64,000 nt of DNA from Patescibacteria group bacterium (GCA_041651015.1 JBAZKA010000002.1:137269-201268); one strand, 5' to 3'; positions 2,884 to 50,744 are shown, counted from the stretch's first letter. Program-made: numbers and translations. Notes: generated by a model not told the origin, from the letters alone.

Positions 2884-3144
2884 TATTTATCCTCCATGGC
2901 TAGAAAACTTTTCAATCTCTCCCTCCTTCGAACCCACTTATCCACAACATGAACACGGATCCGCCGTTTTAGCCCCCTCTCGGTTGTATTAAATATCAGC
3001 TACACTATTCAGCAAGCGATCACCGGGAGAGGACTACAAACAGAAATTTAGTTTTCGTTCTCACCTCAGATCGCGATTATTCAAATGGCTCTAGACAGGC
3101 CTATCCAATCGCAGAAGGGAGGTGAGATGCACAAACGATAACAG

Positions 3145-3564
3145 GTGATTCGCACACCTGTCAAGTGCAGTAGATTTATGAACGACAATTCATACGATGA
3201 AGAAGACGGCTTCAGCTTCAACGCCAACAGCGAGGGAGAGGAGGCGCCGCGTCGCCGGTCTCCGCTCGCGCTCCACATCCGCCGCTTGCGGCAGTGGTAC
3301 GGCGAGACCGGGATAGAACAGCAAGACCTCGCCCAGATCGCGGGCGTGTCCGATCGCCAGCTCCGCGTCTACGAACGCGGCCGCGCTCTGCCCCAGTCCA
3401 TCGAGTTCCTGCTTTCCATTGCCCTCGCGCTCGGCGTGCCCATGGAGTGGCTCATCAACCCCAACCGGCTCGAGAAGATCCGCCAACAGATCGACGAACG
3501 CCGCGAAGCCTTCGAAAGAAGCCGCCTCGGCATTGAGGGCTCCAGCGGATCATGTGAGGAGTAG
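3145..3564 (+). CDS. XRE-family helix-turn-helix transcriptional regulator
   Basis: HTH_XRE-like segment QQDLAQIAGVSDRQLRVYERGRALPQSIEFLLSIALALGV. First high-GC gene. GTG start at 3145 or ATG at 3178. Confidence 0.6.
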   Translation: MIRTPVKCSRFMNDNSYDEEDGFSFNANSEGEEAPRRRSPLALHIRRLRQWYGETGIEQQDLAQIAGVSDRQLRVYERGRALPQSIEFLLSIALALGVPMEWLINPNRLEKIRQQIDERREAFERSRLGIEGSSGSCEE

Positions 3565-4063
3565 CATTCCTTTCACGATCGCCGCGGTCGTCCGACACGC
3601 CGGCCTTGCCATCACCGTTCTTCGCGGACACGAGGTCATCGAGATCAACAAAACGAGGATCACGTCCTCGGAGAAGCTCGGCCGCGTTGTGGCGAAGTAC
3701 ATAAACGAAGCCGCCGACGATTACGAAGCAGAGAAGATCATTGTGGAGAGAAACAGCTCCGTTCACCGCATCCTGCGGAAACGTTGCTGCTCTGGAGAGA
3801 GACTCTTCACCGTCGATCCTCGTGACATCAAGCGGCTCGCGCTGCGCGACGAGCCGTGCGCTACAAACAGGGCGCTCCTCGCGAGGCTCATCAGGCGCTA
3901 CCCCAAGCTCGCACGGTTCGTCGCGGTTCACCGCGACACGGGCGAGCTCGGATGGAACGACCCGCGGCGCACCGCCGCGCTCCTCGCCGTCGCGCTCGGC
4001 TTCGCCGCGCAGAACGTCACGCAGAACGTCGCCGATCACGGCGACTCAAACATTCATTCATGA
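3554..4063 (+). CDS. hypothetical protein (start uncertain, non-ATG)
   Basis: Long ORF in a coherent frame after the XRE gene with no internal Met. A GTG at 3554 is the most plausible start. No recognisable domain. Confidence 0.3.
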   Translation: MRSSIPFTIAAVVRHAGLAITVLRGHEVIEINKTRITSSEKLGRVVAKYINEAADDYEAEKIIVERNSSVHRILRKRCCSGERLFTVDPRDIKRLALRDEPCATNRALLARLIRRYPKLARFVAVHRDTGELGWNDPRRTAALLAVALGFAAQNVTQNVADHGDSNIHS

Positions 4064-4075
4064 TCACTAAAACCC

Positions 4076-4333
4076 ATGTTCAACAAATTCAAACGTCCGG
4101 GAGCGGAGCACCGCTCCCGTGAAACAAATGTGGACAAATTACTCCGTATTTTAGGCGACGAGCGCTGGCACTCCACGTCCGAGCTTGTGGCACGCGTATC
4201 CCATTCGTTCTCGCACTCGAAATTTAGGCTCGTGAAATACGGCTACCCCGTGGAGAAACGAAAACACCCGCACAAATCTCGGCAGTACCAATACCGGCTT
4301 CGCCCCATTCCGGGCGAGCCGGAGTTCGAATGA
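4076..4333 (+). CDS. hypothetical small basic protein
   Basis: 85-aa ORF with ATG start, basic composition, possibly DNA-binding. Confidence 0.35.
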   Translation: MFNKFKRPGAEHRSRETNVDKLLRILGDERWHSTSELVARVSHSFSHSKFRLVKYGYPVEKRKHPHKSRQYQYRLRPIPGEPEFE

Positions 4334-4823
4334 TCCTTCGCCGCGGTCGCGACGCTCACGCGATCGACGACCGGCTCCTATTCGCCGTCATACTCTTCCT
4401 AAAAGACGAGGAGCCTCGAACGGCCTAACAACGAGAAAACTGGCTAACCAACGGGCTGAAAACGCCACGCGTGCCGTGGGCTTCGCCCCCGACGTATTTC
4501 TGTCATCTAAGTGTGGTCCCGCCCGGGTCATCTCCCCTTCGGGTCGAGCCTCGGTCACCCCACTAAGAGACAGAAATACGTCGGGTGCCTGCGGCCCCAC
4601 GACACGCGGGCGGCGGGCTACCCCGAGGCCGACCGCGACACCGACCCCGCAGAGGCGGGGCGGGTCGCGTCGCCGGCCATCGGGTCCCAACGCCGAACGG
4701 GTGAACGGGGTGAAGAGAGTGCCTCAACATCCTACGGAGAAATCATGGCGCGCGGCCGGGCCGCGTTGGGCGTGGCTTCGCGCGTCCCCTTTACTTTTTC
4801 TATCCACTATCCAGCACCCCTCT

Positions 4824-5741
4824 ATGTCGACATCCCCCTACCGTCGCCCGGAGCAACCCGCCTCCGGCTTCATCCTCCAACCGCGGGACAGAAAAATCCT
4901 CAAGACAGTGGTCACACACCGATTCGTCCGCAGCGACCACGTCCGCGATCTGCTCTTCCCGGACAAGTGCCTGCGCGTCGTGCAAGTGCGGCTCCGCAAG
5001 CTGTGGGAGCACCGTTACCTCGCCCGCTACTTTGTACCCAAGATCTGGAACGTCCCCGAACCGGCCATGGTGCGCCCGGGCCAGCCGGTCTACGGCTTGG
5101 ACGAGGCCGGCGTGGCTCTCTTCGCCGACAGCGAGAACGCCCACGCGATCGTCGCGAAGTACCGAGCCGGCAAGGTGAGCAGCTCTTGCTTGGAGCACAA
5201 CCTCGTAGCGACCGATTTCCTCGTCAGCACGGCGTTGGCCTGCTCGGGTCGGAAGGATCTCCAACTCGTCGAGGCCGAGAGCGAGGCGAGCTTCTGGCAC
5301 AAGATCACCGAGTGGAAGGCCAAGGGCAACCGCGGGCAGTTCATCATCCCGGACTGCGGTGTCACGCTCGCAAACGAGAAGGGCGAGCGCCTCACGTTCT
5401 ATGTCGAGGTCGTTCGCGCCGATGTGAAGGGTGGCAACGGACACCTCATCCGGAAGCTCGATCACTACGTTAAGCTTTTACGCGAGGGGTTCTTCAAGAA
5501 GGTCTACGGCCACGATCACCTCCGCGCCGTGATCATCGCCACCACGTCAGGCAACCGCGCCGACAACCTGCGCGAACTCGCCAAGTCGCTCACGAACGGC
5601 CGGCGTCTGTTCTGGTTCGGCTCATTCCAGACCAAGGGAGAGGACGGCAGCAATATCTCCACGATCACGAGGGACACGATCCTCGCGAAGAAGTGGATGA
5701 CGGCCGACGGGGAGTTACTATCCATCGCCGAAGCAGTGTGA
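4824..5741 (+). CDS. replication-relaxation family protein
   Basis: N-terminal wHTH-like LQPRDRKILKTVVTHRFVRSDHVRDLLFP...VRLRKLWEHRYLAR typical of Replic_Relax plasmid/ICE proteins. ATG at 4824 inside the longer ORF 4476..5741. Confidence 0.5.
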   Translation: MSTSPYRRPEQPASGFILQPRDRKILKTVVTHRFVRSDHVRDLLFPDKCLRVVQVRLRKLWEHRYLARYFVPKIWNVPEPAMVRPGQPVYGLDEAGVALFADSENAHAIVAKYRAGKVSSSCLEHNLVATDFLVSTALACSGRKDLQLVEAESEASFWHKITEWKAKGNRGQFIIPDCGVTLANEKGERLTFYVEVVRADVKGGNGHLIRKLDHYVKLLREGFFKKVYGHDHLRAVIIATTSGNRADNLRELAKSLTNGRRLFWFGSFQTKGEDGSNISTITRDTILAKKWMTADGELLSIAEAV

Positions 5742-5897
5742 ACGGGCATTCACCGACTCTATAACAGTCTCCCTTGTACCATGACACACCTGTGACACTA
5801 ACAATATCTACACAGAAAAAACGCTATAACCTATTTGACAGAATAAAAACCTCTGGCCACGTTTGAGATGCTTCCCAAACAACCATAGGAGGGGGAA

Positions 5898-6215
5898 ATG
5901 GATCCAAGACGAATCAGTCTAGACGTCACGGTCGGCGAATACAACGGTGTCTGCTTGCCCAGCAACGAGGGCTCCACGGGGTATCATTGGATTCTTCCGA
6001 TGATGCCTAACTGCATCAACCGCACGAATGACGAGTGGATGCCAGCGTTCCAGACCTCGCCGGGCTATACTGGCACCCCTGGTGTCCACGTGTTCGTGTT
6101 CCAGGGGATGACGCCCACGCAACAGCCGGCGGAGATGGAATTCTTGCTGGTGCCGCCGGGGCGTGACCAGAAGCCGACGCAGAGAGCCGTCTGCACGGTC
6201 ACCGTGCGCAAGTAG
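5898..6215 (+). CDS. hypothetical protein
   Basis: 105-aa ORF with no recognisable domain. Confidence 0.3.
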   Translation: MDPRRISLDVTVGEYNGVCLPSNEGSTGYHWILPMMPNCINRTNDEWMPAFQTSPGYTGTPGVHVFVFQGMTPTQQPAEMEFLLVPPGRDQKPTQRAVCTVTVRK

Positions 6216-6271
6216 CTCCCGCCCGCGCCGCATCTCAGTTTTTCCACGATAATCATTTTTTAAAAAAAATC

Positions 6272-7558
6272 ATGACCATCACCCAACATCTGTCGCAAAC
6301 GGCCGAGGGGGATCCGCTCCTCATCCTCGGCGAGACCGTGTTCCGACATCGCCATCAGCGGTTCGGACTTCTGCCCGAGGATCGGCTTCGTCATCTCTGG
6401 CTCCTCGGCAAGACCGGCTGCGGCAAGTCCACACTCCTCGCGAACCTCGCCATCCAGGATCTGGAAGCCGGCAACGGATTCGCCCTCCTCGACCCGCACG
6501 GCGATCTCGTCGATGACGTCCTGCCGTTCGTGCCGCCGAATCGCATCAACAATGTGCTCCTTTTCGCGCCGGAAGATCGCGATTACCCAGTATCGTTCAA
6601 CGTCTTCCGCCGAGGCCGATCGCTCCATCCGGACACGGCGCTCCTCGCCTCGGGGCTGCTCTCGGTGTTCAAGAAGCACTGGGCGGATTCCTGGGGACCG
6701 CGGCTTGAGCACATTCTCAGAAACGCCATCCTCGCCGTGGCGAACGACCAGAGAGCGACGCTCCTCTTCCTCTACCGCTTCCTCACAGACGAGGCGCTCC
6801 GCGACAACGTGGTCGCCACCGTATCAGATCCGGTTGTCGCGGCGTTTTGGAAGAAGGAGTTCCCGGGCTACACCAAGGCGCTCCAGGCCGAGGCGATCGC
6901 CCCGGTTTTGAACAAGCTCGGCGCCTTTGTCGCGAACCCGATCATCCGCGCCATCGTTGGGCAGGAACGCTCACGCGTGGATTTCATCTCCATCATGGAA
7001 ACGAGGGGTATCATCTTTGCCAAGCTCCCGTCCGGACGCATCGGCGAGGACGCGAGCCGTCTCCTCGGCTCTCTCCTTCTCACCGCGATCCAGCTCGCGG
7101 CCATGGAGAGATCGCACCGAGAACCGACCTTCACGATCTACGCCGACGAGTTCCAGCACTTCGTCACCGATTCCCTTGCGACCATGCTCGCCGAGGCCAG
7201 GAAGTTCGGCCTCGGGCTCGTGCTCGCGCACCAGTACCTCGGCCAGCTACCAGTCACGGTGCGAGACGCACTTCTCGGCAACGTCGGGAGCGTCGTCTGT
7301 TTCCGCCTCGGCGCGCACGACGCCGAGATCCTCGCCCCGGAGTTCAACCCGCCGTTCGTGGAACACGATCTGCAGCACCTCGGTCGCTACCACGCCGCGG
7401 TGAAGATCCTTGCGAGGGGGGAGTCTCTCCGACCGTTCACGATGAGGACGTTGGAGATGAAGACACCGACGCTTGGAGCCGAGAAGAGGGTTGCGAGGTT
7501 GGAGACACAGGTGAGGAGACGATTCTGTGATTTAATCACACTGAACGTCCCAAAATGA
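6272..7558 (+). CDS. VirD4/TraG/TrwB-like P-loop ATPase (coupling-protein-like)
   Basis: Walker A LLGKTGCGKST, DPHGD motif (like the VirD4 DPKGE motif), Walker B IYADEF. Confidence 0.55.
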   Translation: MTITQHLSQTAEGDPLLILGETVFRHRHQRFGLLPEDRLRHLWLLGKTGCGKSTLLANLAIQDLEAGNGFALLDPHGDLVDDVLPFVPPNRINNVLLFAPEDRDYPVSFNVFRRGRSLHPDTALLASGLLSVFKKHWADSWGPRLEHILRNAILAVANDQRATLLFLYRFLTDEALRDNVVATVSDPVVAAFWKKEFPGYTKALQAEAIAPVLNKLGAFVANPIIRAIVGQERSRVDFISIMETRGIIFAKLPSGRIGEDASRLLGSLLLTAIQLAAMERSHREPTFTIYADEFQHFVTDSLATMLAEARKFGLGLVLAHQYLGQLPVTVRDALLGNVGSVVCFRLGAHDAEILAPEFNPPFVEHDLQHLGRYHAAVKILARGESLRPFTMRTLEMKTPTLGAEKRVARLETQVRRRFCDLITLNVPK

Positions 7559-7641
7559 CGCGTTTCAAACGGCATTCCATGCAATGAAGACAAGATAAAA
7601 AATTTCTGTACATTCGATCAGGTCTGCATTATTTTTCGAAA

Positions 7642-8172
7642 ATGGACTGGAGACGACGAAGGCAGATCCGCCAGTTGGCTGATCGTGTGCGAGATGCCCT
7701 CAAGTTGGAAGGCCCCCCTTATGACGTCGAGCTAGCAGTAAAGCTTCTGAACGGCACTATCGTAGCTCCAACTGACTGGCTGACAGAAGCCCTTGTTCGC
7801 AAGAATGGCGAGTCCTTCATCATCGAGGCAACAAAAGCAGCGTCATCGGAACGACAGCGGTTCTCTATAGCTCATGAGTTGGGCCACTTGTTCCTTCACA
7901 TGGGATATCTGGTTGATATAGACACTTGGAACAGCATCAACGAATACCGCGATTCCCCCATGTACCGCAGGGGACATAGCGAAGAAGAATTCGAAGCCAA
8001 CGAGTTTGCCGCCGCCTTCCTCATGCCAGAATCTGACTTCCGAAAAGTGGCCGAAGAACACAAGGTCGGTTGCAGTTACCGAACAACGGACATCGCACAA
8101 AAATTCGGTGTCTCCATGCCAGCCGCCCAAAACCGCGGTAAATGGATAGGCCTTTTCGACTGGAATTCATAA
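7642..8172 (+). CDS. ImmA/IrrE-family zinc metallopeptidase
   Basis: HEXXH motif (AHELGHLFLH) followed by EANEFAAAFLMP, the downstream Glu motif of the ImmA/IrrE (DUF955) fold. Stop abuts the start of the next gene (8172/8173). Confidence 0.7.
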   Translation: MDWRRRRQIRQLADRVRDALKLEGPPYDVELAVKLLNGTIVAPTDWLTEALVRKNGESFIIEATKAASSERQRFSIAHELGHLFLHMGYLVDIDTWNSINEYRDSPMYRRGHSEEEFEANEFAAAFLMPESDFRKVAEEHKVGCSYRTTDIAQKFGVSMPAAQNRGKWIGLFDWNS

Positions 8173-9459
8173 GTGCCGAAAAATATAGAACTCATCCAGC
8201 AAGAATTGGGCTCGGCCCCTGTGGAAACCTCCGACCTGCCTCCTGCCCGCGTGTATCTCTTCATTTCGTTTGACTTAGTGAACTCTACAATTTTCAAACA
8301 GCGTGAAGAGAGTTGGCCCACGGTTCTTGGGACCTTCTACAGAAGAGCCGAGCATGGGATAAACGCTCGGGTCGCAGGCGCAACCGTTTGGAAGTACGCT
8401 GGCGATGAGGTTCTGTTCTGGGTCGCTCCATCATCGGCTGAAGAAATGTGCAAACAACTCGACGGCGCGTATCAGGTGCTGCAAGAGTTAGATCGTGAAA
8501 TGGACACTACCTCTAACCGTCGTCTTCGGGTGAAGGGCACCTGCTGGATAGCTTTAGCCGAGCCAGAAAGTCCAGAGAATTTGCGGAGCCCTGATAGACC
8601 CAAAGCACCCAATCTCATCATCTCCCAACCGCTCGAAGCGAATCCACCGACTCGTGATTTCGTCGGGCCTGATATTGATGCTGGATTCAGACTAGGTGCA
8701 TGCACGTTCAAGTCCACTTTTGCTGTGAGTGCTGAACTAGCGGCGGTTCTTTTAGATAAAGCGCCGATGCCAATCGCTAATAATCTTCATGTTGTCGGGT
8801 ACAAGAAATTGAAAGGTGTATGGAAGGATCGTTTCTACCCCATCGTTTGGTATCGCAAAGAGCTGGATAATGGCTTTGAATATGATGATAAATACGAGAA
8901 CGAAATGCTCGCCAATGGCATTGCAGAGAAGGAAAAAAAAGCAGCCAAGATCGAAGAACTGAAAGACGCTGTCCATAGCATTCGAACCGGATACGTTAAG
9001 CAGCTACTCGATGCCTTTGAACGACCAGCATTGGAAATGTCACCTACGCCGCGTCTGGAAGTACACTGTGCTGCAGCGTGTCGCCGTAGCAATGGCGACG
9101 TTTTGGTCGCCCAGCGCCAAGCAGATAAACGCATCCATCCGGAGAAGTGGGAGTTTGGTTGTGCTCAACTTCGACTCGGAGATACGTTTGAGGAAGCGCT
9201 CGCTCGAGATTACAGGGATGATTTCGGTGCTGAACTCAACTTCCCCGCCGACGCCCATGCACTGGCAACCTACAGTTTTGAACGCGATGGAAGGAAGATT
9301 CCTGGTGTCATTTTACTCGCGATTGTCACAAATCCCGAAGACTGCAAAGCACACAAGCATCAGAATATCCGCTGGATTAACCCCAGCGACCCACCACATG
9401 ATGTGGTCGAGAATGCTGTCCCCGATCTCGTGAAGGCGCTTTCTCGACTTGCGAGTTGA
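8173..9459 (+). CDS. class-III-nucleotidyl-cyclase-like domain fused to NUDIX hydrolase domain
   Basis: N-terminal F-x-D-L-x-x-S-T (FISFDLVNST), K-x-x-GD-x-x-L (WKYAGDEVLF) 44 aa later, and G-x-x-I-D-x-G-F-R-L (GPDIDAGFRL). C-terminal NUDIX-box-like GDTFEEALARDYRDDFGAE. See findings. Confidence 0.5.
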   Translation: MPKNIELIQQELGSAPVETSDLPPARVYLFISFDLVNSTIFKQREESWPTVLGTFYRRAEHGINARVAGATVWKYAGDEVLFWVAPSSAEEMCKQLDGAYQVLQELDREMDTTSNRRLRVKGTCWIALAEPESPENLRSPDRPKAPNLIISQPLEANPPTRDFVGPDIDAGFRLGACTFKSTFAVSAELAAVLLDKAPMPIANNLHVVGYKKLKGVWKDRFYPIVWYRKELDNGFEYDDKYENEMLANGIAEKEKKAAKIEELKDAVHSIRTGYVKQLLDAFERPALEMSPTPRLEVHCAAACRRSNGDVLVAQRQADKRIHPEKWEFGCAQLRLGDTFEEALARDYRDDFGAELNFPADAHALATYSFERDGRKIPGVILLAIVTNPEDCKAHKHQNIRWINPSDPPHDVVENAVPDLVKALSRLAS

Positions 9460-9833
9460 GAGAGACCTGATAGAGACGTCAGAATCTGACTGATCAAGGG
9501 GCTCTACGGCTGTAATTCACGCCTGGGAATGAGTGCGAAACGCAGGCACAGGTCGCTGCCGCGTCAAAATCTTTTTTATAGCCACTTTCTCGGTATTCCA
9601 CAGCGAACGTTTCATGCCTGTGTCCCCGCCCCCTCTAACGTGGCTGGTAACCAATTCCGACCACGGCGCACGTCAGCCTGACCGCTGGCGCGGCGCGCAT
9701 CTCGCCTTCGAGGTCAGTCGATGCGAGGTGCTTAGAGGGGACGGGAGCATTCCCGCCCACCGTTCTTTTCACAACGTTCCTTCCCTGCCTGCCGGCAGGC
9801 AGGCACAACCCCAAACCCAAGGAGACAAAGAAG

Positions 9834-10049
9834 ATGGAAACGCACAGCACCGATCCGGAACGCGAGATCATCGACGGCTTCACCGCCGTCGAGATCAGGA
9901 ACATGGCCTTGGACAGCGTGGTCCAGGCCCGCTGCGACGACTGCGGCGCGATCCACGATGTGGAGCCCGACGCCGAGTCCTACGATTGCGCGAGCTGCGA
10001 CGCCAAGGGCTCGGTGAAGAGCCCGCTCGTCAAGCTCGGCCTCATCTGA
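9834..10049 (+). CDS. hypothetical zinc-ribbon protein
   Basis: aggaga RBS. Two CxxC pairs (CDDCG ... CASCD). Confidence 0.4.
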   Translation: METHSTDPEREIIDGFTAVEIRNMALDSVVQARCDDCGAIHDVEPDAESYDCASCDAKGSVKSPLVKLGLI

Positions 10050-10101
10050 CCGACGCGGACATCACCGCACTTCTACGGAGAAGAGAAAGGAGGAAACGAA
10101 A

Positions 10102-11358: not shown

Positions 11359-11359
11359 A

Positions 11360-11909: not shown

Positions 11910-11951
11910 ACCCCGCCGAAGAGATCACCGAACAAAAGAAAGGAAAACCAA

Positions 11952-13748: not shown

Positions 13749-13759
13749 TCGTTCTTTGT

Positions 13760-39752: not shown

Positions 39753-39764
39753 GTTCCTTTCCTT

Positions 39765-42609: not shown

Positions 42610-42610
42610 C

Positions 42611-43710: not shown

Positions 43711-43712
43711 GG

Positions 43713-44744: not shown

Positions 44745-44876
44745 TTCTCTTTTCTTTCTGCTTTCCGTTCCTTGTCTTTCCGGTTCCTTTCTGTTTCTGC
44801 ATTGAGTTTACTCATTCAAGCAGGTGCTCGTTGATTGGATTGTATTTTCGTCTTCCATACATTTGCTTGCTCCTTA

Positions 44877-45590
44877 CTATGCGGTTTGCCTGAAAACAGA
44901 ATTGCAGACATTGCACGTGGCATCGAAGTAGACGCTGCGCGCGATATAGATTCTGGTGCCACATTTGCAATGCCAGCATTTGCGACTCTTCTGTTTGGAG
45001 ATAACTGTCTCGGTCTCGTCCTTTTCGAAGCAGCCCCGAGTGCCGTTCAAATTGTTCTGCTGCGCCCAATCCAAGAACGGACTCGGATCAACGACAAGGC
45101 TTTCGACTTTCGCGGCTCCCCAGCGGTTGCAGGGAATTCCGATTGCGTCCAACGCCTTACGCATGCTCGAAGAGTGATAATTGTTCACGGAACTTGGCGC
45201 GGTGTCTGTGATTTCTTCTAGAGCATGGAACATTTCGTGGAGCAAAATGGCCGCAATTTGGATTTCGGAATGCTTATGGAAATAGCCGGGATTGATACCG
45301 ATCTCAAAGCGATTGCCATATCCGTTGCGGTTGCAATGATAGTGGCCGAGCCACCTGCTATGCACTTCTTTAAATGTGAATACGAAGTCCGGGCGGGACG
45401 TCGGGCGATATTTCCATTCTCTCGGTATAAAACATTCCCAGAGAGAGACCGACCACTGACGCATTTTCTTTGAAATTTCCGAGTAGTGCCAATCTGACAG
45501 ACTATCCTGAAAGTTTCCGAGAGATTGGTTCATCTCCGCATCGGTGATGTTGGGCTGCACGACCAACACTTCTGCTGTTTGCCTTGTCAT
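44877..45590 (-). CDS. SprT-like metallopeptidase with zinc ribbon (second copy)
   Basis: HEMFHAL plus CWHCKCG...CNVCNS. Confidence 0.5.
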   Translation of the reverse strand: MTRQTAEVLVVQPNITDAEMNQSLGNFQDSLSDWHYSEISKKMRQWSVSLWECFIPREWKYRPTSRPDFVFTFKEVHSRWLGHYHCNRNGYGNRFEIGINPGYFHKHSEIQIAAILLHEMFHALEEITDTAPSSVNNYHSSSMRKALDAIGIPCNRWGAAKVESLVVDPSPFLDWAQQNNLNGTRGCFEKDETETVISKQKSRKCWHCKCGTRIYIARSVYFDATCNVCNSVFRQTA

Positions 45591-45919
45591 GGGTTATTCG
45601 CCTTTCGTAAAAGGCTGCGTCGTGCTGCAAATCTCATTGAGAGTTCGGCCAATGATTTCTCTGATGTGCTCGTGAAATGCGGCGAAGTAATGTTACGGGT
45701 GTCAGGGAATTGCTTGTCTTTCGGTTCCGTTTCATCTGAAACGGTTTTCCGTTGTTTTTCTTCTGGAATTGTGTTAGCTGATTTGAACATCTTTGATCCT
45801 CATGCTCCTTTTCGAAGCGTTCTGTCGTCTGCTGTTGTGGGTCTATTCGTGCAACAGGCGACATCTGTCTCTACCTACTTGAGTTTCTTTAGTTTTTCCG
45901 CAGATGCACGGGCTATCTA

Positions 45920-46318
45920 TTGACAATTATTGGTATTTCTGGTAGGCTTTGTTTAGTTCACTTCTTGGTATTAGTTACATACCAACCAACTGGCCCCTTC
46001 GGGCCGTTTGGCTGGAGTTTTCGTGGGGCCGAGAAAGGACGGCCTATCGTGCCCCACAAAACAAAAGAGGATTTGGTTAAAGAAAGAAGAAAGCTTATAG
46101 AAGAACAGATTATCTCCCTGCATCTGGTCAAAAGACGGATGGGATGTGATTCAGATGATGTTAATCTATCACTGGCTGGTCTGTTTATTGACGGCGGCCC
46201 TCTGTCTGAAAAGCAAGCTCTTTTACTTAATCACACAAAACACTGCGAACCTTGCCGTCTTCTTTGTGATCTTATCACAAAAACGATTCGGCTTGACCGT
46301 CTTGAAAATTCATTGTGA
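45920..46318 (+). CDS. hypothetical protein, zf-HC2 anti-sigma-like motif
   Basis: LLNHTKHCEPCRLLCD resembles the zf-HC2 anti-sigma N-terminus. Start uncertain. Confidence 0.3.
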   Translation: MTIIGISGRLCLVHFLVLVTYQPTGPFGPFGWSFRGAEKGRPIVPHKTKEDLVKERRKLIEEQIISLHLVKRRMGCDSDDVNLSLAGLFIDGGPLSEKQALLLNHTKHCEPCRLLCDLITKTIRLDRLENSL

Positions 46319-46375
46319 GATTGCGACAGCAGCGCGTATTTTAAAATATCAAGTTCGGACATTACAAGCTCTCCA

Positions 46376-48802
46376 TTGGAGAGCTTTTGTTTTTATCCCA
46401 TGAAAGTAAAAAGAAAAAAGCTTTCACAGTTAGAATTGGAACGGTTCGTAAACGAACTGTACGCCAAAGCCAAGATACGGTCGTTTTTATCTGATTTGGA
46501 AGCAGTCGATCGGTTGCAACGTTTTTCTGATTTATCGAGCGAGTTCGGTGTTAGCTTTTCGAAAGATGAATACAAGAGAATATTTAATGACATCCAATAT
46601 TCGGCTTTTTACGAGTTACAAGAAAGAAGTGAAGACTCGATAGAAGAATTGCCCGGAGATGAAGACGAGAATCCTGGATTTTTGCTAGACGAAAGAAAAA
46701 AATATATAAAACATTTGGTAGAAGAACGTGAATCAGAAAAAAGGTTAGAGGAGCGAAACGCCCTTGAAACAGAATGTTCGATTGATTCGCCAACTCAAAA
46801 TGAAGCAAATGAAGACAAGAGAACCTTTATCGACTTTCTTGCACCAGTAATATTTGATCTTGTAGGAAAGAGCAACCCGTCTATTGTTGGTGTCTATCAC
46901 CTGTGTTGTAGGAAAGGCTTATCCCCGAAAGCGGCAGCAAAAGAACTGGAACTCACCGAGGGTCGAGTCTCTCAAATTAAGTCAGAAATAGTCGAGGTTT
47001 TTACAAAACACTATCCCAAAATCGCAAATGATAGGAAGAAATTCCAAGAAGCTTCAAGAATTATAACTCAGTTTTATGTTAGGAAATTAAAGATAGACGA
47101 TCCTGAAACCGTGAGAAAACTTACCGCAGTATTGACTGGCGCAGCCGTCTTCTTCGTAGCACTGATTTCTCAAGCAACAGAGATTTTCACGAGTGATGAG
47201 CTTATTGAAAATATTGCGAGAGGCACCAAGTCAACGTCGCTCTGGCAAGGATTCAAAGATCGCTACATCAACAAAATTAACATATTGTTGTCTCTTGCGA
47301 CAATCATTGTTTTGTCTCCTGCAATATATGAACTATTATCACATAGGCCTCATATAAAACCATCCCAGGGTAATATTACAGATCCAGCTACCGGATCAGA
47401 CGAGAATAACCCACAGAATCTCTTTAAAAATGAGAATGACAGCGGTGCGGTCGACGTAATGAATGGCGTAGAGTACTTGTCATTGCAGATAGAACAGACG
47501 TTTGGAAAAGAAAAATATAAAAACGTTTTTGTAATAAACGGTATTCCGCCAGATTATACAAGGGTGGTTGTGTATGAAATAACGAATAGAAACAAGATTA
47601 ATGCTACACATTTAGACATGAGCGCTGAAGCTTACTTGGTTCCCGCCATTGGCAATTCTAAAATTCCTATAAGTACGATGATACTTACCGCCGATGGTGA
47701 AAACACAAACACGAAGGCGATTGCCACAGAATCATCAGGTGCGGAACCGAAAAAGACTATGATAGTAATAGGTTCAACAATGCAGATAGAGCCGGGCTCC
47801 GTGATAGAAGGTACCTTCAATGTTGACTATGAAATTGGCAATATTAGGAAGAAACAAAGTAGGACTTTTGAAATCAAAGAACCCGGCGCATTTTTATGGG
47901 CCGGGGAATCTGAGATGAGCAGATACGGAGACAAATTGAATAGAAATTCTGTCATAATAGCTTCCAAGGGCGGAACCGCAAATATTGAAATAAGCACATA
48001 TCCCGAAGAAATTCTGGTGGGATGTTTATCAAAACCGAGTAATTTGCCAACAAAAGAAGGTTGCAAGAAGACCATACCAGACATGAGCTTTATTACGGCA
48101 GATATAGTAACGACAACTGATGGCGGTGGTGTCATGGACGGATTTATACGGATCTTGGAGATAGAAACAAAACAATTATTGAATCGAAACTTGGCACAAT
48201 CCAACAAAGAAAACGAACCAATAGCGCAGTGCGATTTGGCAGCCAATATTCTAGGAGTCGAATCTTGCGAAGGTGTTGTACAGGCAGTACCAGAGCAAGG
48301 GAAATTGCTTTTGTTGGATGAAAAGGGAGGATTTTTTCTCTCAGACCTTGACGGCGGGATTGAAAATGAGGACAAATGGATAATAGCCTTTGTTTCGGAA
48401 TCGAAAGGTAGAAAATGGTTTGCGAAAGCTAATGTCAACATTGAGAACAATGATCTGACGAGACTGTCAATAAAGAGTGAAAATGAAAGCGAGAAAACAG
48501 TTTCCTGTAAAACAACTAACAGAGCTGGATTTACGGAAGGATATTGCCTGCCAATACAATTGTCAGCTTACAGAATTGACGATGATACTTGGATCGGAAG
48601 TTATCAATTGTCTGGAATTGTTTATCCACGACAAAAAATGAAAGAGAATTACAAAGGCGCCTTGGCTTTGATTAGATTCTGTAAGTTTGAAGAAGGATGG
48701 AAGCCATGTAGTAAAAAAAGCGGAACACAGTATTGGGAAAAGATAGCAGAAAGAAGCGAGATATTTAATTCAAGTTGTAAAAAAAGTAATTGTTCACTAT
48801 AA
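46376..48802 (+). CDS. membrane protein with N-terminal sigma-70 region-4-like HTH and large extracytoplasmic domain
   Basis: HTH in IVGVYHLCCRKGLSPKAAAKELELTEGRVSQIKSEIV. Two TM helices at ~aa 255-310. ~500-aa C-terminal domain. GC ~38%. Confidence 0.5.
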   Translation: MESFCFYPMKVKRKKLSQLELERFVNELYAKAKIRSFLSDLEAVDRLQRFSDLSSEFGVSFSKDEYKRIFNDIQYSAFYELQERSEDSIEELPGDEDENPGFLLDERKKYIKHLVEERESEKRLEERNALETECSIDSPTQNEANEDKRTFIDFLAPVIFDLVGKSNPSIVGVYHLCCRKGLSPKAAAKELELTEGRVSQIKSEIVEVFTKHYPKIANDRKKFQEASRIITQFYVRKLKIDDPETVRKLTAVLTGAAVFFVALISQATEIFTSDELIENIARGTKSTSLWQGFKDRYINKINILLSLATIIVLSPAIYELLSHRPHIKPSQGNITDPATGSDENNPQNLFKNENDSGAVDVMNGVEYLSLQIEQTFGKEKYKNVFVINGIPPDYTRVVVYEITNRNKINATHLDMSAEAYLVPAIGNSKIPISTMILTADGENTNTKAIATESSGAEPKKTMIVIGSTMQIEPGSVIEGTFNVDYEIGNIRKKQSRTFEIKEPGAFLWAGESEMSRYGDKLNRNSVIIASKGGTANIEISTYPEEILVGCLSKPSNLPTKEGCKKTIPDMSFITADIVTTTDGGGVMDGFIRILEIETKQLLNRNLAQSNKENEPIAQCDLAANILGVESCEGVVQAVPEQGKLLLLDEKGGFFLSDLDGGIENEDKWIIAFVSESKGRKWFAKANVNIENNDLTRLSIKSENESEKTVSCKTTNRAGFTEGYCLPIQLSAYRIDDDTWIGSYQLSGIVYPRQKMKENYKGALALIRFCKFEEGWKPCSKKSGTQYWEKIAERSEIFNSSCKKSNCSL

Positions 48803-49086
48803 TAGATAAGATATCCGTTTCTGCCCCTCCCCACTCCAGAACTGAGGAGTACAATATCCGGATATGCAAAAAATATTCAAGAATTGTCGGCCCGAATATA
48901 GTAAAACCAGCGAACAAACAGAAAAAAAAATTCCGGTATTTGCCGAAGAAGAAATAAAAAACATCCTCGAATTTCTAGGGTGTCTTAAAGATATCTCGGA
49001 AGGACTTTTACGCAAGGGTTATACTCTCGCAGACGGGGTATTCATTCAGCCAAATAACAACAATAAGTCAGTAAATTCATTTCCAT

Positions 49087-50718
49087 ATGAGGACAACCGA
49101 ACTCGTTAAAACCGCACATGAATATCTCATCTATGCTCGTAAAAGCACTGATGACCAAGAGCATCAGAAGAACTCTATCGAATACCAGGTGATGCACTGC
49201 CGGAAGTTCGCCGCCGACCTTGGCCTGCGGATAGCCGATTACGCTGAAGACGATTTTTGTGACAACGGCATCGTTCAAGAGAGTCATACGGCGTTCAAAA
49301 CCTCCGGGTTGGAGATCTCACCAGATGGCTCGATACAGTACAATATCGACCGGCCTCGCTTTCAAAGACTTGTCGCGCTTCTGGCCTCTGGAAAATTCAA
49401 AGGAGTGATCTGCCTTTGCTGGGATCGCCTGTCTCGAAATCCGCACGACGATGCGGTTGCGAAATATCTTCATGATCGCGGCGTCGACATCCGATTTGTT
49501 CTCGCTACATACGACAACTCCAGTTCTGGCGCCCTTCACATGGCCATCGATGGTGTATTCGCCTCTTTCTATTCGCGCAATGTCTCCGAAAAGGTGACCT
49601 TGGCAATTGCTAAGCTGCGCCTCGAAGGAAAGCGCCTCGGCAAAGCGCCAATCGGATATTTAAACAGAGGGTCTGGGAACAAGCCGCTCGACCCTGCGCG
49701 TGCTCCTGTGGTCAAGAAGCTCTTTGAGCTCTACGCCACCGGTGAGTGGAGCATCGCCCAATTGGCGCAGTGGGCGAAGAAGCAAGGACTCACCAGCCAG
49801 GGTAAGCTCAGAAAGAAAAAATCGCCCGAAGGAGAAAAGGCTCATCCTGTTCTCCCGAGAACGATTGAGTTGCTACTACACAACCCGTTCTATGCCGGCT
49901 TTCTCCGCCACGACGGCGTTGAGTACCCTGGCGCTCACGAGCCGCTCATTTCTAGAGAGCTCTTTGATCATGTTCAACTCGTCCACAGAAAGCGCACGAC
50001 CTCTGTCCATTACGCCGAGGAACTGCCCTTCTGTTATCGCGGCCTGATCCGCTGCTCTTGCGGTCGGAGCTATTCCCCCTATCTTCAGAAGACTTATGTC
50101 TACTACGGCGCACGTTGTCGCGGCGCCTGCGGTAATCCGACACGGAATCTCTCCGAGCAGAAAATAGACGCGGTTTTCCAAAAATTGCTCGGCCGCCTTC
50201 ATTTTTCCGAAGAAGAAACGGCTTGTATAAAAGAAAATGCGCCGCAGTTTTTCGCTGAAGCGAACACGAAGAGAAATGAAACAGGACTGATCTACGAAAA
50301 ACAGCGCAACCGACTGATGCGTGATCTTCAGTATCTTGAAGACAATAAAATAGACCTGCTCAGAGAGCGTGCATTCACGCCAAATGAGATTTCAAAAGAA
50401 ATGGCACAATTGCGTGTCGAACTTGGGAGTCTAAAAACAAAAGCCACGACTTTAATCGAGGTAGATGAGCAGACAAAATTAGAGACAGTCCTGAATTTTT
50501 CCGAACTCATTATTTCCGCCAAGTCTGCATTAGAAAACGCCGATAGTCAGAAAAAGCGACACTTGTTCACAACCCTGTTTTCCGAACTGGTTTTGGACAA
50601 CGGAATTGTCGCTAGTTACAGCGCAAAACCGGGTATTGAAAAGTTGCTGAAAAGACCTCTTGCGAAACTCAGTGCCCTTGGAGGGAGTCGAACCCCCGTT
50701 ACTAGATTCGAAGTCTAG
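49087..50718 (+). CDS. large serine recombinase
   Basis: Resolvase-type N-terminus YLIYARKSTDDQEHQKNSIEYQ (catalytic Ser), recombinase domain, Cys-rich zinc ribbon (CSCGRSY...CRGACG), coiled-coil. The last ~15 codons are tRNA-Arg sequence. Confidence 0.8.
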   Translation: MRTTELVKTAHEYLIYARKSTDDQEHQKNSIEYQVMHCRKFAADLGLRIADYAEDDFCDNGIVQESHTAFKTSGLEISPDGSIQYNIDRPRFQRLVALLASGKFKGVICLCWDRLSRNPHDDAVAKYLHDRGVDIRFVLATYDNSSSGALHMAIDGVFASFYSRNVSEKVTLAIAKLRLEGKRLGKAPIGYLNRGSGNKPLDPARAPVVKKLFELYATGEWSIAQLAQWAKKQGLTSQGKLRKKKSPEGEKAHPVLPRTIELLLHNPFYAGFLRHDGVEYPGAHEPLISRELFDHVQLVHRKRTTSVHYAEELPFCYRGLIRCSCGRSYSPYLQKTYVYYGARCRGACGNPTRNLSEQKIDAVFQKLLGRLHFSEEETACIKENAPQFFAEANTKRNETGLIYEKQRNRLMRDLQYLEDNKIDLLRERAFTPNEISKEMAQLRVELGSLKTKATTLIEVDEQTKLETVLNFSELIISAKSALENADSQKKRHLFTTLFSELVLDNGIVASYSAKPGIEKLLKRPLAKLSALGGSRTPVTRFEV

Positions 50719-50744
50719 TGTCCTATCCGCTGAACGACAAGGGC
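50673..50744 (-). tRNA. tRNA-Arg (anticodon TCG)
   Basis: Manual cloverleaf: acceptor GCCCTTG/CAAGGGC, anticodon loop CTTCGAA, T-arm GGGGG-TTCGACT-CCCTC. Confidence 0.7.

What the first reader, a model, noticed from the sequence alone, without database searches (positions are those of the whole stretch)
3050..50744. ~47-kb high-GC mosaic integrative element in a low-GC host, bounded by tRNA-Arg
GC rises abruptly from ~40% to ~65% near 3.05 kb and returns to host-like values right at the tRNA-Arg/tRNA-Lys pair (50.67-50.84 kb). The interval encodes a large serine recombinase adjacent to the tRNA, a tyrosine integrase with excisionase, two Replic_Relax proteins, a primase, two VirD4-like ATPases, RadC, two SprT-like proteins, DUF736 and HU. 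This is the gene content of an integrative or conjugative element. The duplicated modules suggest at least two merged elements. Cargo resembles high-GC Myxococcota-like bacteria (MopE-like Cys repeats, SBBP propeller lipoprotein, D/T/S acidic linkers). The flanks look like a minimal CPR-type genome. A 25% GC differential between element and host is extreme and worth verifying as genuine transfer rather than a chimeric assembly.
Basis: partly seen in the sequence, partly recalled or inferred. Interest (0 to 1): 0.6.

Follow-up and report, generated by a model that had tools for sequence, protein, structure and literature searches.

The report
Foreign high-GC mobile island in CPR bacterium
A tiny-genome CPR bacterium (Candidatus Magasanikbacteria) carries a real 48-kb patchwork of foreign, mostly high-GC mobile DNA inserted next to a tRNA gene, and related elements sit in other CPR genomes, so this is repeated gene import rather than an assembly error.

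Summary
A compositionally foreign interval of about 47.8 kb (window ~2,911-50,718) lies between two flanks that share one genomic signature and belong to a Candidatus Magasanikbacteria (CPR) chromosome. It ends at tRNA-Arg(TCG).

It is a mosaic, not uniformly high-GC. Blocks of 60-63% GC alternate with 40-42% and 48-51% blocks; the flanks are 42-45%.

It contains two unrelated mobilisation modules, each with a MOBC/Replic_Relax relaxase and a coupling-protein-like ATPase. It also has a large serine recombinase (LSR), a tyrosine integrase with excisionase, defence-like genes and Myxococcota-like surface proteins. No mating-pore genes were found, so it looks mobilisable rather than conjugative.

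Chimerism is unlikely. A second assembler reproduces the left junction and the stretch from the island through LSR and tRNA-Arg into a CPR-type tRNA-Lys. Homologous elements show the same GC step and the same LSR-against-tRNA junction in other low-GC genomes, two of them loci of another Patescibacteria chromosome.

The left end is a rearrangement breakpoint, not an att site. DUF736 was not found.

Verdict: a new member of a known kind (accreted integrative mobilisable elements), notable for the host phylum and unameliorated composition.

The parts
2911..50718 (.). Composite foreign island, about 47.8 kb, 54.2% GC overall
   Evidence: GC profile. Tetranucleotide signature differs from both flanks. 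Homology to related elements begins at 2,917.
50672..50744 (-). tRNA-Arg(TCG) at the right junction. Its 3' 47 nt are overlapped by the LSR ORF.
   Evidence: ARAGORN and Rfam. Only 48-51/73 identical to the tRNA-Arg of the closest relatives, although the adjacent tRNA-Lys is 73-74/74 identical.
50772..50845 (-). Host tRNA-Lys(CTT). First unambiguous host feature on the right.
   Evidence: Identical to Magasanikbacteria loci L008 and L012.
49087..50718 (+). Large serine recombinase (543 aa, 50% GC); cognate integrase of the element-1 family
   Evidence: Resolvase and Recombinase domains. N-terminal YARKSTDDQ motif. 45-49% identical LSRs sit at the tRNA-proximal edge of homologous elements in L086, L090 and L091.
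3178..4333 (+). Element-1 regulatory head: XRE HTH (3,178-3,564), conserved 169-aa (3,554-4,063) and 85-aa (4,076-4,333) proteins
   Evidence: Pfam HTH_3. Conserved in order in L086, L087, L089, L090 and L091.
4476..5741 (+). Replic_Relax / MOBC-type relaxase 1 (true start probably about 4,824)
   Evidence: PF13814, E=7.5e-15. PHROG 'replication initiation by nicking'. 38-59% identical homologues in related loci.
5898..6215 (+). Chagasin-type peptidase inhibitor I42 (cargo)
   Evidence: Pfam, E=2.5e-7.
6272..7558 (+). Coupling-protein-like ATPase 1 (TrwB/VirD4 class; no predicted TM segment)
   Evidence: TrwB_AAD_bind, 33.3 bits. TrwB and DotL are the only PDB hits. More than 7,000 homologues. 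No TM segment by hydropathy scan.
7642..9459 (+). Mid-GC insert: M78/CapP-like peptidase (7,642-8,172) and a 428-aa NUDIX-containing protein (8,173-9,459)
   Evidence: Pfam, PADLOC capP, E=1.2e-27. The segment is absent from homologous elements.
10102..13748 (+). Element-1 tail: DnaG-type primase (10,102-11,358), DUF6573 (11,559-11,909), RadC (11,952-12,608), SprT-like 1 (12,993-13,748)
   Evidence: Pfam. Synteny and 53-70% identity in L087, L089, L090, L091, L109 and L122. A hairpin followed by a T-run (terminator-like, by reading) follows SprT.
13782..17510 (.). Low-GC block 1: Ser/Thr kinase (978-aa ORF) and a 246-aa protein
   Evidence: Pkinase, E=7e-23. PADLOC PD-T4-6 and mad6. Signature unlike host, r=0.42-0.48.
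18058..24206 (.). High-GC cargo 1: lipoprotein (18,058-18,729), 1,163-aa Big_13/MopE surface protein (19,070-22,561), 258-aa and 80-aa proteins, Zn_ribbon_2 protein
   Evidence: Pfam. Predicted signal or TM anchors.
24822..25967 (-). Low-GC block 2: PycC-like nucleotide cyclase (381 aa)
   Evidence: PADLOC PycC, E=1.3e-9. Weak Guanylate_cyc hit.
26725..29597 (+). Regulators: MarR (26,725-27,327), HU/IHF (27,739-28,038), wHTH (28,302-28,760), LuxR-type response regulator (28,830-29,597)
   Evidence: Pfam.
29685..31349 (+). IgGFc-binding-domain secreted protein (62% GC)
   Evidence: PF17517, E=1.8e-61. Named homologues are Polyangia, Deltaproteobacteria and Myxococcota MAGs.
31358..36248 (-). 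Duplicated lipoprotein pair (31,358-32,548 and 34,756-36,248; 46-50% GC) flanking a 63%-GC propeller lipoprotein (33,053-34,732)
   Evidence: Paralogy at 28-29% identity. Faint DUF5122 hit.
37937..38168 (.). Two exact 23-bp direct repeats (37,937-37,959 and 38,146-38,168), the second lying inside the 3' end of the tyrosine integrase gene, around a degenerate tRNA-3'-like stretch. Candidate element-2 attachment or arm region.
   Evidence: Interpretation not established.
38128..39752 (-). Element-2 tyrosine integrase (38,128-39,369) and HTH_17 excisionase (39,366-39,752)
   Evidence: Pfam. Same gene order in L124, where the integrase abuts tRNA-Arg(TCG).
39765..45590 (-). Element-2 mobilisation module: MOBC relaxase 2 (39,765-40,676), 2-TM/Zn-ribbon protein (40,673-41,032), coupling-protein-like ATPase 2 (41,029-42,609), three membrane proteins (42,611-44,744), SprT-like 2 (44,877-45,590)
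   Evidence: Pfam, NCBIfam, TM scan. Synteny in L120, L121 and L124.
46376..49109 (+). Low-GC block 3: 808-aa protein of unknown function and an 81-aa protein, co-oriented with the LSR
   Evidence: No significant family hits. Signature unlike host.

Best explanation
The interval about 2.91-50.72 kb is a genuine composite genomic island in the chromosome of a Candidatus Magasanikbacteria (CPR/Patescibacteria) bacterium. It abuts the 3' end of tRNA-Arg(TCG). It was built by accretion of at least two unrelated integrative mobilisable elements (IMEs) plus cargo.

Element 1 (E1) belongs to a very large, mostly uncharacterised family. Its canonical layout is: tRNA | LSR | XRE repressor, two small conserved proteins, MOBC (Replic_Relax) relaxase, coupling-protein-like ATPase, DnaG-type primase, DUF6573, RadC, SprT.

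Element 2 (E2) has a tyrosine integrase, an excisionase, a second MOBC relaxase, a second coupling-type ATPase and several small membrane proteins.

Inferred mechanism:
1. The LSR, which by established knowledge of the enzyme class needs no host factors, inserts the circular element at or in a tRNA gene.
2. After excision, the MOBC relaxase nicks an oriT.
3. The coupling ATPase hands the DNA to a mating pore supplied in trans. No pore genes are in the island.
4. The primase, RadC and the SprT-like protein aid establishment in the recipient.

The high-GC genes (GC3 0.75-0.83 against 0.40-0.55 in host genes) evolved in high-GC genomes. At least some cargo is Myxococcota-like. The lack of amelioration suggests recent arrival. 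The present copy is rearranged: the LSR and its cognate E1 backbone are 35 kb apart and relatively inverted, and the left end is a truncation. It may therefore no longer excise as a unit.
For: Genuine, not chimeric:
- The Logan assembly of SRR8542065 independently gives a 12.5-kb contig identical to window 1-12,433, spanning the left junction.
- A second Logan contig, 27.7 kb, was fetched over window 39,087-50,821 and is 100% identical there. Record coordinates place its start near 23,128. It runs through the LSR, tRNA-Arg and spacer into a tRNA-Lys identical to that of Magasanikbacteria relatives. The only break lies inside that 74-nt tRNA.
- Left and right flanks share one tetranucleotide signature (r=0.84-0.88). 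They carry housekeeping genes: a class II aaRS C-terminus, L32, NusB, RNase III, ParAB.

Recurrence:
- E1 ATPase homologues at 69-71% identity lie at two loci of a 963-kb Patescibacteria contig. GC steps from 43-45% to 60-68% exactly at an LSR that abuts a tRNA.
- A third low-GC MAG locus, L091, shows 85% ATPase identity and the same LSR-tRNA junction.
- The LSR 3' end meets the tRNA 3' end convergently in 4 of 4 loci.

Backbone and E2:
- E1 backbone synteny holds across seven or more loci.
- E2 synteny holds in L120 and L124 and in part in L121. L121 is another Magasanikbacteria MAG, where GC steps from 50-57% to 60-72%. In L124, at about 69% GC, the integrase abuts tRNA-Arg(TCG).

Class assignment:
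- PF13814 corresponds to MOBC. Serine integrase + MOBC + VirD4 is a described IME class (PMC5357655).
- MOBC is the commonest relaxase in Patescibacteria, often next to a t4cp, and a chromosomal MPF_FATA-like T4SS is widespread there (PMC12102498).

Cargo affinity.
Against: - No att direct repeats or empty site were found.
- In relatives, the genes downstream of tRNA-Arg lie on the other side of the RNase III cluster in this genome. The insertion therefore cannot be reconstructed as a simple event.
- The link inside tRNA-Lys rests on the MEGAHIT contig alone. Both assemblies appear to derive from the same run, SRR8542065 (inferred from 100% identical contigs, not shown), so no read-level or coverage evidence exists.
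- The ATPase and SprT assignments rest on weak profile hits.
- No oriT was identified, and the rest of the genome was not checked for a T4SS.
- Donor taxonomy rests on one cargo gene at 69% identity or less. The only named carriers of close E1 homologues are low-GC MAGs, labelled Patescibacteria and 'Bacilli'.
Confidence: 0.72

Rival explanations
1. Assembly chimera. A high-GC organism's element was wrongly joined to a CPR contig through shared tRNA sequence.
For: The Logan assembly breaks inside tRNA-Lys; its two contigs overlap by only 13 nt there. Both assemblies appear to use the same reads. tRNAs are classic chimeric joins.
Against: The left junction lies in unique sequence and is reproduced by a second assembler. 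The second assembler also links the island, LSR and tRNA-Arg to 50 nt of a tRNA-Lys that is 74/74 identical to Magasanikbacteria. The flanks on both sides share one signature. The same GC step at an LSR-tRNA junction occurs at two loci of another Patescibacteria chromosome.
Confidence: 0.04
2. Not one element but an integration hot spot. Several independent insertions (E1, E2, surface-protein cargo, low-GC defence genes) accumulated in situ in the CPR chromosome. None of it ever moved as a 48-kb unit.
For: The block structure is sharp, gene by gene. There are three compositional classes. E1 and E2 are unrelated. Relatives carry scars at the same locus: direct repeats of the tRNA-Lys and tRNA-Arg 3' ends, and an inverted tRNA-Arg.
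Against: E1-like and E2-like modules also lie within about 10-25 kb of each other on high-GC contigs (L122+L120, L124), so they may travel together. No host-signature DNA separates the blocks. Low-GC genes also sit inside a homologous element in a high-GC context, L089.
Confidence: 0.3
3. The immediate donor was another CPR bacterium, so the transfer was CPR to CPR. The high GC reflects older history or a higher-GC CPR lineage rather than direct transfer from Myxococcota.
For: The junction tRNA-Arg is CPR-like. Its 5' half is nearly identical to that of Magasanikbacteria-related L024 (my reading of the sequences), but it is unlike the closest relatives. L091 shows that these elements can carry a replacement tRNA plus its upstream flank from a related host. 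Named carriers of close E1 homologues are Patescibacteria. The literature finds most Patescibacteria HGT to be intra-phylum (PMC12455944).
Against: GC3 of 0.75-0.83 is far above any CPR flank seen here. E2 relatives lie in 64-71% GC contigs: in L124 GC stays at about 69% beyond the tRNA boundary, and the L120/L122 contig is high-GC throughout. The cargo's named homologues are non-CPR.
Confidence: 0.25
4. Self-transmissible ICE, or a prophage.
For: There are two coupling-type ATPases and several small membrane proteins in E2.
Against: No VirB4, VirB6 or other MPF family hit turned up in the Pfam, NCBIfam and PADLOC scans of the island's major ORFs. No phage structural or terminase hits were found.
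Confidence: 0.07

Closest known systems
Streptococcal IME_Class_8: serine integrase + MOBC (PF13814) relaxase + VirD4 coupling protein (Coluzzi et al. 2017, PMC5357655)
   Same: The same three signature functions in a compact mobilisation module with no mating-pore genes. Accretion with other IMEs at one site is also described there.
   Different: The proteins are far below curated family cut-offs. The host is a CPR bacterium. The backbone also carries a primase, RadC and SprT. In this family the LSR abuts tRNA genes. Here the LSR is 35 kb from its module.
MOBC relaxase / T4CP pairs noted statistically in Patescibacteria genomes (Microb Genom 2025, PMC12102498)
   Same: MOBC is the commonest relaxase in Patescibacteria and is often adjacent to a t4cp. 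The authors read this as acquired mobile elements. A resident MPF_FATA-like T4SS could act as helper.
   Different: That survey did not report, in the passages retrieved, the elements themselves, their integrases, tRNA junctions, GC discordance or cargo.
Genomic islands of Patescibacteria (mSystems 2025, PMC12455944)
   Same: Islands and HGT make up as much as 13% of genome length in aquifer Patescibacteria.
   Different: Those were predicted by composition tools. The passages retrieved mention no integrase or relaxase, so no element family appears to be described.
Actinomycete integrative and conjugative elements (AICEs, e.g. pSAM2). Compared from general knowledge, not a paper read here.
   Same: Small integrative elements at tRNA genes with int/xis, a replication or nicking protein, a single DNA-translocating ATPase and a NUDIX gene.
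   Different: No FtsK_SpoIIIE (TraB) domain was detected. The ATPases hit TrwB, TraG and DUF87 instead. The relaxase is MOBC-type.
Classical tRNA-targeting genomic islands with tyrosine integrases. Compared from general knowledge.
   Same: E2 has an integrase and excisionase next to a tRNA-like remnant. Its relative in L124 abuts tRNA-Arg(TCG).
   Different: The junction integrase here is a large serine recombinase, and no flanking direct repeat of the tRNA 3' end exists.

Membership tests
Integrative mobilisable element (IME), serine-integrase/MOBC/T4CP class | Encodes its own integrase | tested here: met
   LSR with Resolvase (E=2.3e-19) and Recombinase (E=2.9e-14) domains and a YARKSTDDQ serine motif. 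A tyrosine integrase, E=1.2e-25, is also present.
Integrative mobilisable element (IME), serine-integrase/MOBC/T4CP class | Relaxase of the MOBC / PF13814 superfamily | tested here: met
   Two PF13814 hits, 55.9 and 55.4 bits against a cut-off of 25.3. The NCBIfam MobC subfamily hit is only faint. Nicking activity was not tested.
Integrative mobilisable element (IME), serine-integrase/MOBC/T4CP class | VirD4/TrwB-type coupling protein | tested here: inconclusive
   ATPase 1: TrwB_AAD_bind, 33.3 bits (cut-off 20.5), with TrwB and DotL as the only PDB hits at E about 6e-4. ATPase 2: only sub-threshold TraG-D_C, DUF87 and CD1115 hits. Neither has the N-terminal TM segments typical of T4CPs.
Integrative mobilisable element (IME), serine-integrase/MOBC/T4CP class | No mating-pair-formation (T4SS) genes of its own | tested here: met
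   No VirB4, VirB6, VirB8 or similar hits among the island's major ORFs. Several proteins remain unassigned.
Integrative mobilisable element (IME), serine-integrase/MOBC/T4CP class | Defined attL/attR ends, and excision to a circle | tested here: not met
   No repeat of the tRNA or junction sequence exists at the far end. The left end is a truncation just after the RBS of a lost divergent gene. Excision is not testable here.
Self-transmissible ICE | VirB4-class ATPase and other MPF components | tested here: not met
   None detected.
AICE (actinomycete type) | FtsK/SpoIIIE-domain TraB translocase | tested here: not met
   No PF01580 hit on either ATPase.
Prophage | Capsid, terminase, portal or tail genes | tested here: not met
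   PHROGs gave only a nicking-initiator hit and two unknown-function hits. No Pfam phage structural domains were found.
E1 element family (LSR | XRE-MOBC-T4CP-primase-RadC-SprT at tRNA 3' ends; defined here) | Backbone gene order and sequence homology | tested here: met
   26-85% amino-acid identity across the backbone (ATPase 60-85%, relaxase 38-59%, small head proteins 26-61%). 66-83% DNA identity over 2.9-13.75 kb with L086, L087, L089, L090, L091, L109 and L122.
E1 element family (LSR | XRE-MOBC-T4CP-primase-RadC-SprT at tRNA 3' ends; defined here) | LSR 3' end convergent with, and within about 15 nt of or overlapping, a tRNA 3' end | tested here: met
   Window tRNA-Arg, L086 tRNA-Val, L090 tRNA-Ala, L091 tRNA-Ile.
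E1 element family (LSR | XRE-MOBC-T4CP-primase-RadC-SprT at tRNA 3' ends; defined here) | LSR lies a few kb upstream of, and divergent from, the XRE module | tested here: not met
   In the window they are 35 kb apart, at opposite ends and co-oriented. This indicates inversion or recombination.
Host: Candidatus Magasanikbacteria (Patescibacteria/CPR) | Flank proteins and synteny match Magasanikbacteria genomes | tested here: met
   RNase III is 80-84% identical to MAGs labelled Magasanikbacteria or Patescibacteria. The L32-NusB-RNaseIII-tRNA-Lys-tRNA-Arg order is conserved. NCBI labels the contig's proteins Patescibacteria.

The most novel reading that the evidence does not exclude
Uncultured CPR bacteria repeatedly capture unameliorated, host-factor-independent LSR elements, with their Myxococcota-type surface proteins, directly from the high-GC bacteria they live on. 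GC-discordant IMEs at tRNA genes would then be a genomic marker of who the physical host of a CPR lineage is. The recurrently linked E1+E2 pair might also form a minimal transfer system that uses the resident Patescibacteria T4SS.
Probability: 0.2. Interest if true: 0.8.

Novelty: new member of a known kind. Interest (0 to 1): 0.55.

Why it matters
CPR/Patescibacteria have genomes of about 1 Mb (general knowledge; this genome's size was not measured) and mostly unknown hosts. On that estimate the island would be roughly 5% of the genome. It consists of recently imported foreign DNA: mobilisation genes, defence-like genes and secreted or surface proteins whose relatives are in Myxococcota.

The same element family, with the same recombinase-against-tRNA junction and GC step, sits at two loci of another Patescibacteria chromosome from the same sample and in a third low-GC MAG. 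Three consequences follow.

1. High-GC segments in CPR MAGs should not be discarded automatically as contamination.
2. There is now a concrete, abundant element family (more than 7,000 ATPase homologues in public data) behind the MOBC/T4CP signal seen in surveys.
3. Donor-recipient links could be tested as clues to CPR host association.

Tried and rejected
1. Direct repeats of tRNA-Arg, tRNA-Lys or the junction sequence anywhere in the window. None is longer than 15 nt.

2. An apparent tRNA T-arm-like match at the left boundary (CTCCCTCCTTCGAACCC). It turned out to be the Shine-Dalgarno and leader of a lost divergent gene, conserved with L091. It is not an att site.

3. A T-loop consensus scan. 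Three hits against 2.8 expected, so not informative.

4. An empty-site allele. Relatives conserve RNaseIII-tRNA-Lys-tRNA-Arg but are followed by genes that lie elsewhere in this genome, so no clean empty site exists.

5. The internal low-GC blocks as host DNA. Rejected on tetranucleotide signature.

6. E1 and E2 as duplicates. Rejected, since there is no BLASTP similarity.

7. DUF736. Not found by Pfam on candidate small ORFs or by motif scans. My first HU regex also missed the real HU/IHF gene, which I later found by reading ORFs.

8. Known plasmids. There is no near-identical DNA. The best ATPase-1 match is 38.5% (Sulfitobacter), and there is none for ATPase 2.

9. The JGI metagenome scan. 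Only four close relatives, too few for a host-range survey.

10. PDB sequence search. Nothing beyond Walker-A-level hits.

11. Literature. No paper was found linking Magasanikbacteria with Myxococcota or describing this element family.

Full report
**Observation.** The 1-kb and 300-nt GC profiles show a sharp rise near 3.05 kb, followed by a block mosaic rather than a plateau.
- About 60-63% GC: 2.9-7.6, 9.5-13.75, 18.0-24.25, 29.7-31.35, 33.05-34.7 and 37.2-44.8 kb.
- About 40-42% GC: 13.8-17.95, 24.3-26.6 and 45.6-48.9 kb.
- About 48-51% GC: several blocks, including the recombinase gene.

The flanks are 41.8% (left) and 45.2% (right). The island as a whole is 54.2%. The differential is therefore about 16-20 points at block level, not 25.

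GC3 of the high-GC genes is 0.75-0.83, against 0.40-0.55 in flank genes.

tRNA-Arg(TCG) at 50,672-50,744 and tRNA-Lys(CTT) at 50,772-50,845 are confirmed.

A composition-normalised tetranucleotide comparison shows four things:
- The two flanks are one genome (r=0.84-0.88).
- The high-GC blocks resemble each other (r=0.80-0.90).
- The internal low-GC blocks are not host-like (r=0.42-0.52 to the flanks).
- The recombinase gene groups with the island.

**Host.** The right flank encodes RNase III, NusB, L32, RluA-type pseudouridine synthase, ParA, ParB and a RelA/SpoT-type protein. The left edge encodes the C-terminus of a class II aminoacyl-tRNA synthetase.

RNase III is 80-84% identical to proteins of MAGs labelled Candidatus Magasanikbacteria or Patescibacteria. 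The order L32-NusB-RNaseIII-tRNA-Lys-tRNA-Arg is conserved in them. NCBI labels this contig's proteins 'Patescibacteria group bacterium'.

The window is part of a 241,451-bp ENA contig, ERZ27247363 k141_1359160.

**Gene content.**

Module E1, 2.9-13.75 kb, plus strand:
- XRE HTH.
- Conserved 169-aa and 85-aa proteins.
- Replic_Relax (PF13814).
- I42 inhibitor.
- TrwB-like ATPase.
- A mid-GC insert: M78/CapP-like peptidase plus a NUDIX-containing protein.
- DnaG-type primase.
- DUF6573.
- RadC.
- SprT-like protein.

Cargo, 13.8-37.2 kb:
- A 978-aa Ser/Thr kinase (PD-T4-6 / mad6-like, low GC).
- Lipoproteins.
- A 1,163-aa Big_13/MopE protein.
- A PycC-like cyclase (low GC).
- MarR.
- HU/IHF at 27,739-28,038.
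- A wHTH protein.
- A LuxR-type response regulator.
- An IgGFc-binding-domain protein.
- A propeller lipoprotein flanked by a duplicated lipoprotein pair.

Module E2, 38.1-45.6 kb, minus strand:
- SprT-like protein.
- Three membrane proteins.
- A TraG/DUF87-like ATPase.
- A 2-TM/Zn-ribbon protein.
- A second Replic_Relax.
- HTH_17 excisionase.
- Tyrosine integrase.

From 46.4 kb onward there is a low-GC 808-aa protein, an 81-aa protein and the large serine recombinase (LSR). The LSR ORF overlaps the 3' 47 nt of tRNA-Arg.

No VirB4 or other mating-pore family and no phage structural family was detected. DUF736 was not found.

E1 and E2 proteins have no BLASTP similarity to each other. They are two different elements with analogous functions, not a duplication.

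**Chimera test.** Exact-protein look-ups found independent Logan contigs from run SRR8542065.
- One of 12,521 bp is 100% identical to window 1-12,433. It spans the host/island junction, which lies in unique sequence.
- One of 27,694 bp was fetched over window 39,087-50,821 and is 100% identical there. Record coordinates place its start near window 23,128, so it would cross several internal GC steps. It covers the LSR, tRNA-Arg, the 27-nt spacer and 50 nt of tRNA-Lys.
- A third starts at 50,809 inside tRNA-Lys and continues into the RNase III side.

The only link not reproduced is inside a 74-nt tRNA-Lys. That tRNA is 74/74 identical to Magasanikbacteria relatives and is therefore a cross-genome repeat in a k=31 graph.

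With both flanks sharing one signature, a cross-phylum chimera is very unlikely. Both assemblies appear to use the same reads, so read-level confirmation is still needed.

**Recurrence.** The E1 ATPase has more than 7,000 database homologues, and the top 120 are at least 60% identical.

Two copies at 69-71% identity lie on a 963,177-bp Patescibacteria contig, GCA_041649475.1. The sequence around one copy also appears as a separate contig in this ENA assembly. At both loci GC steps from 43-45% to 60-68% exactly at an LSR.

A third low-GC MAG locus, L091, has an 85%-identical ATPase and the same layout.

LSRs 45-49% identical to the window's sit at the tRNA-proximal edge of all three. In all four cases the LSR 3' end converges on, and comes within about 15 nt of or overlaps, a tRNA 3' end: Arg-TCG, Val-CAC, Ala-TGC and Ile-GAT.

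In L091 a truncated 5' copy of tRNA-Ile (nt 1-53), with its upstream flank, precedes the intact tRNA. This suggests that the crossover lies near the T-arm and that the element carries a replacement tRNA.

Consistent with such replacement, the window's tRNA-Arg is only 48-51/73 identical to that of its closest relatives. The adjacent tRNA-Lys is 73-74/74 identical.

Other E1 homologues lie in stretches of 10-21 kb that are 55-71% GC (L087, L089, L122). There the integrase can instead be a tyrosine recombinase with an excisionase.

**E2.** Its ATPase family is small, with 77 hits. The module order (membrane proteins, ATPase, small TM protein, Replic_Relax, xis, int) is conserved in three places:
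- L120, at 64-71% GC.
- L124, at about 69% GC, where the integrase abuts tRNA-Arg(TCG) and GC stays high beyond the tRNA.
- In part, a Magasanikbacteria MAG, L121, where host GC of 50-57% steps to 60-72%.

E1-like and E2-like modules co-occur on the same contig in the window, in L122+L120 and in L124. Matching contig lengths suggest a fourth, 19,995-bp contig.

**Boundaries and history.** DNA homology to other E1 elements runs from 2,917 to 13,746, with a gap at the M78/NUDIX insert.

At the left end, homology with L091 starts at the ribosome-binding site of a divergent gene that is missing in the window. The host DUF6602 gene follows about 30 nt later. The left end is therefore a truncation or rearrangement breakpoint, not an att site.

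Canonically the LSR lies a few kb upstream of, and divergent from, the XRE module. Here they are at opposite ends and co-oriented. This implies an inversion, or recombination between elements.

No direct repeats mark the ends.

In relatives, the genes downstream of tRNA-Arg (window 54.2-60.1 kb homologues) lie on the other side of the RNase III cluster in this genome. No clean empty site exists.

The locus is a hot spot in relatives:
- tRNA-Arg is inverted in L006, L007 and L008.
- L005 has a direct repeat of the tRNA-Lys 3' end around a 68%-GC insert.
- L032 repeats the tRNA-Arg tail.

**Origin of the foreign DNA.** For the IgGFc-binding cargo protein, every named homologue apart from the window's own protein is non-CPR. 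They are mostly Polyangia, Deltaproteobacteria, Myxococcales, Sandaracinaceae and Enhygromyxa, plus one Phycisphaerae, at 28-62% identity.

This supports a Myxococcota-like ancestry for that gene, though not an identified donor.

For the E1 backbone, the only named carriers of close homologues are low-GC MAGs, and the junction tRNA is CPR-like. A CPR-to-CPR last step cannot be excluded.

**Mechanism.** Shown: domain content, synteny, junction architecture and compositional foreignness. Inferred from established knowledge of these families:
- LSR-mediated, host-factor-independent integration at tRNA genes.
- MOBC relaxase nicking.
- Hand-over by the coupling-type ATPase to a mating pore supplied in trans.
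- Primase, RadC and SprT as establishment functions.

Three papers bear on this:
- PF13814 corresponds to the MOBC relaxase class, and a serine-integrase + MOBC + VirD4 IME class is described in streptococci (PMC5357655).
- In Patescibacteria, MOBC is the commonest relaxase and often sits next to a t4cp. An MPF_FATA-like chromosomal T4SS is widespread (PMC12102498).
- Genomic islands make up as much as 13% of Patescibacteria genomes (PMC12455944).

I found no description of this element family, its LSR-tRNA junction or its GC discordance in CPR hosts.

**Verdict.** This is a real, composite, rearranged integrative mobilisable island in a CPR chromosome. It is a new member of a known kind. It is of moderate interest because of the host phylum, the size relative to the genome, the unameliorated composition, the recurrence in other CPR genomes and the possible use of such elements as donor or host markers.

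Noticed in passing
L006, L007, L008 (about 10.9-12.6 kb) versus L005, L010, L012 and others: In three close Magasanikbacteria relatives, tRNA-Arg(TCG) is inverted relative to the adjacent tRNA-Lys. In L007 it is separated from tRNA-Lys by a DNA-alkylation-repair gene. The locus is a rearrangement hot spot.
   Followed up: partly
L005:10985-11273 and L032:12162/12352: L005 has a second copy of the tRNA-Lys 3' end (GAATCCCTGGCGACCC) 243 nt downstream of the tRNA, after an insert that reaches 68% GC. L032 repeats the tRNA-Arg 3' tail 190 nt downstream. Both look like scars of earlier integrations at these tRNAs.
   Followed up: partly
L091:395-552: A truncated tRNA-Ile 5' copy (nt 1-29 and 37-53) has its anticodon loop replaced by a GC-rich palindrome. 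It sits with its upstream flank directly before the intact tRNA-Ile that abuts the LSR. This suggests the LSR element carries a replacement tRNA.
   Followed up: partly
window 50672-50744: The junction tRNA-Arg(TCG) is only 48-51/73 identical to that of the closest relatives and is closest (61/73) to the more distant L024. The neighbouring tRNA-Lys is identical to relatives. Possible tRNA replacement by the element.
   Followed up: partly
window 52595-53218: A 205-207-aa ORF on the minus strand with local GC up to 68% lies inside the otherwise 45% host flank, between L32 and an 88-aa gene. It has no Pfam hit and no homologue in the 80 related loci. It may be a separate small foreign insertion.
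   Followed up: partly
window 50843-50888: A 46-nt near-perfect palindrome (96% complementary) lies between tRNA-Lys and RNase III. It looks like a bidirectional terminator.
   Followed up: no
window 37937-37959 and 38146-38168: An exact 23-bp direct repeat, 209 bp apart, is present. The second copy lies inside the 3' end of the tyrosine integrase gene. Between the copies is a stretch about 73% identical to the 3' half of the tRNA-Arg(TCG) targeted by the E2 relative in L124. These may be arm-type sites or an att remnant.
   Followed up: partly
window 7642-9459: An M78/CapP-like peptidase is immediately followed by a 428-aa protein with a C-terminal NUDIX domain and an N-terminal domain matching two unknown-function PHROGs. 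The pair is a mid-GC insert specific to this copy of E1 and may be a defence or anti-defence cassette.
   Followed up: partly
window 2059-2883: The host-side gene next to the island is a DUF6602 protein with NucC / PD-(D/E)xK-like hits in the defence database.
   Followed up: no
window 31358-32548 and 34756-36248: Two paralogous pairs of secreted or lipoprotein genes (28-29% identity, 46-50% GC) bracket a 63%-GC propeller lipoprotein gene. This is a duplicated cassette of mixed composition.
   Followed up: no
window 55794-56672: The CPR flank encodes a UMPH-1-type pyrimidine 5'-nucleotidase (E=2e-58), a family I know mainly from eukaryotes. Only 3 of the 80 related loci have it.
   Followed up: no
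L086, L089, L090, L124: Relatives of E1 often carry a sigma-54-activator-type AAA+ gene between the ATPase and the primase. The window copy lacks it.
   Followed up: no
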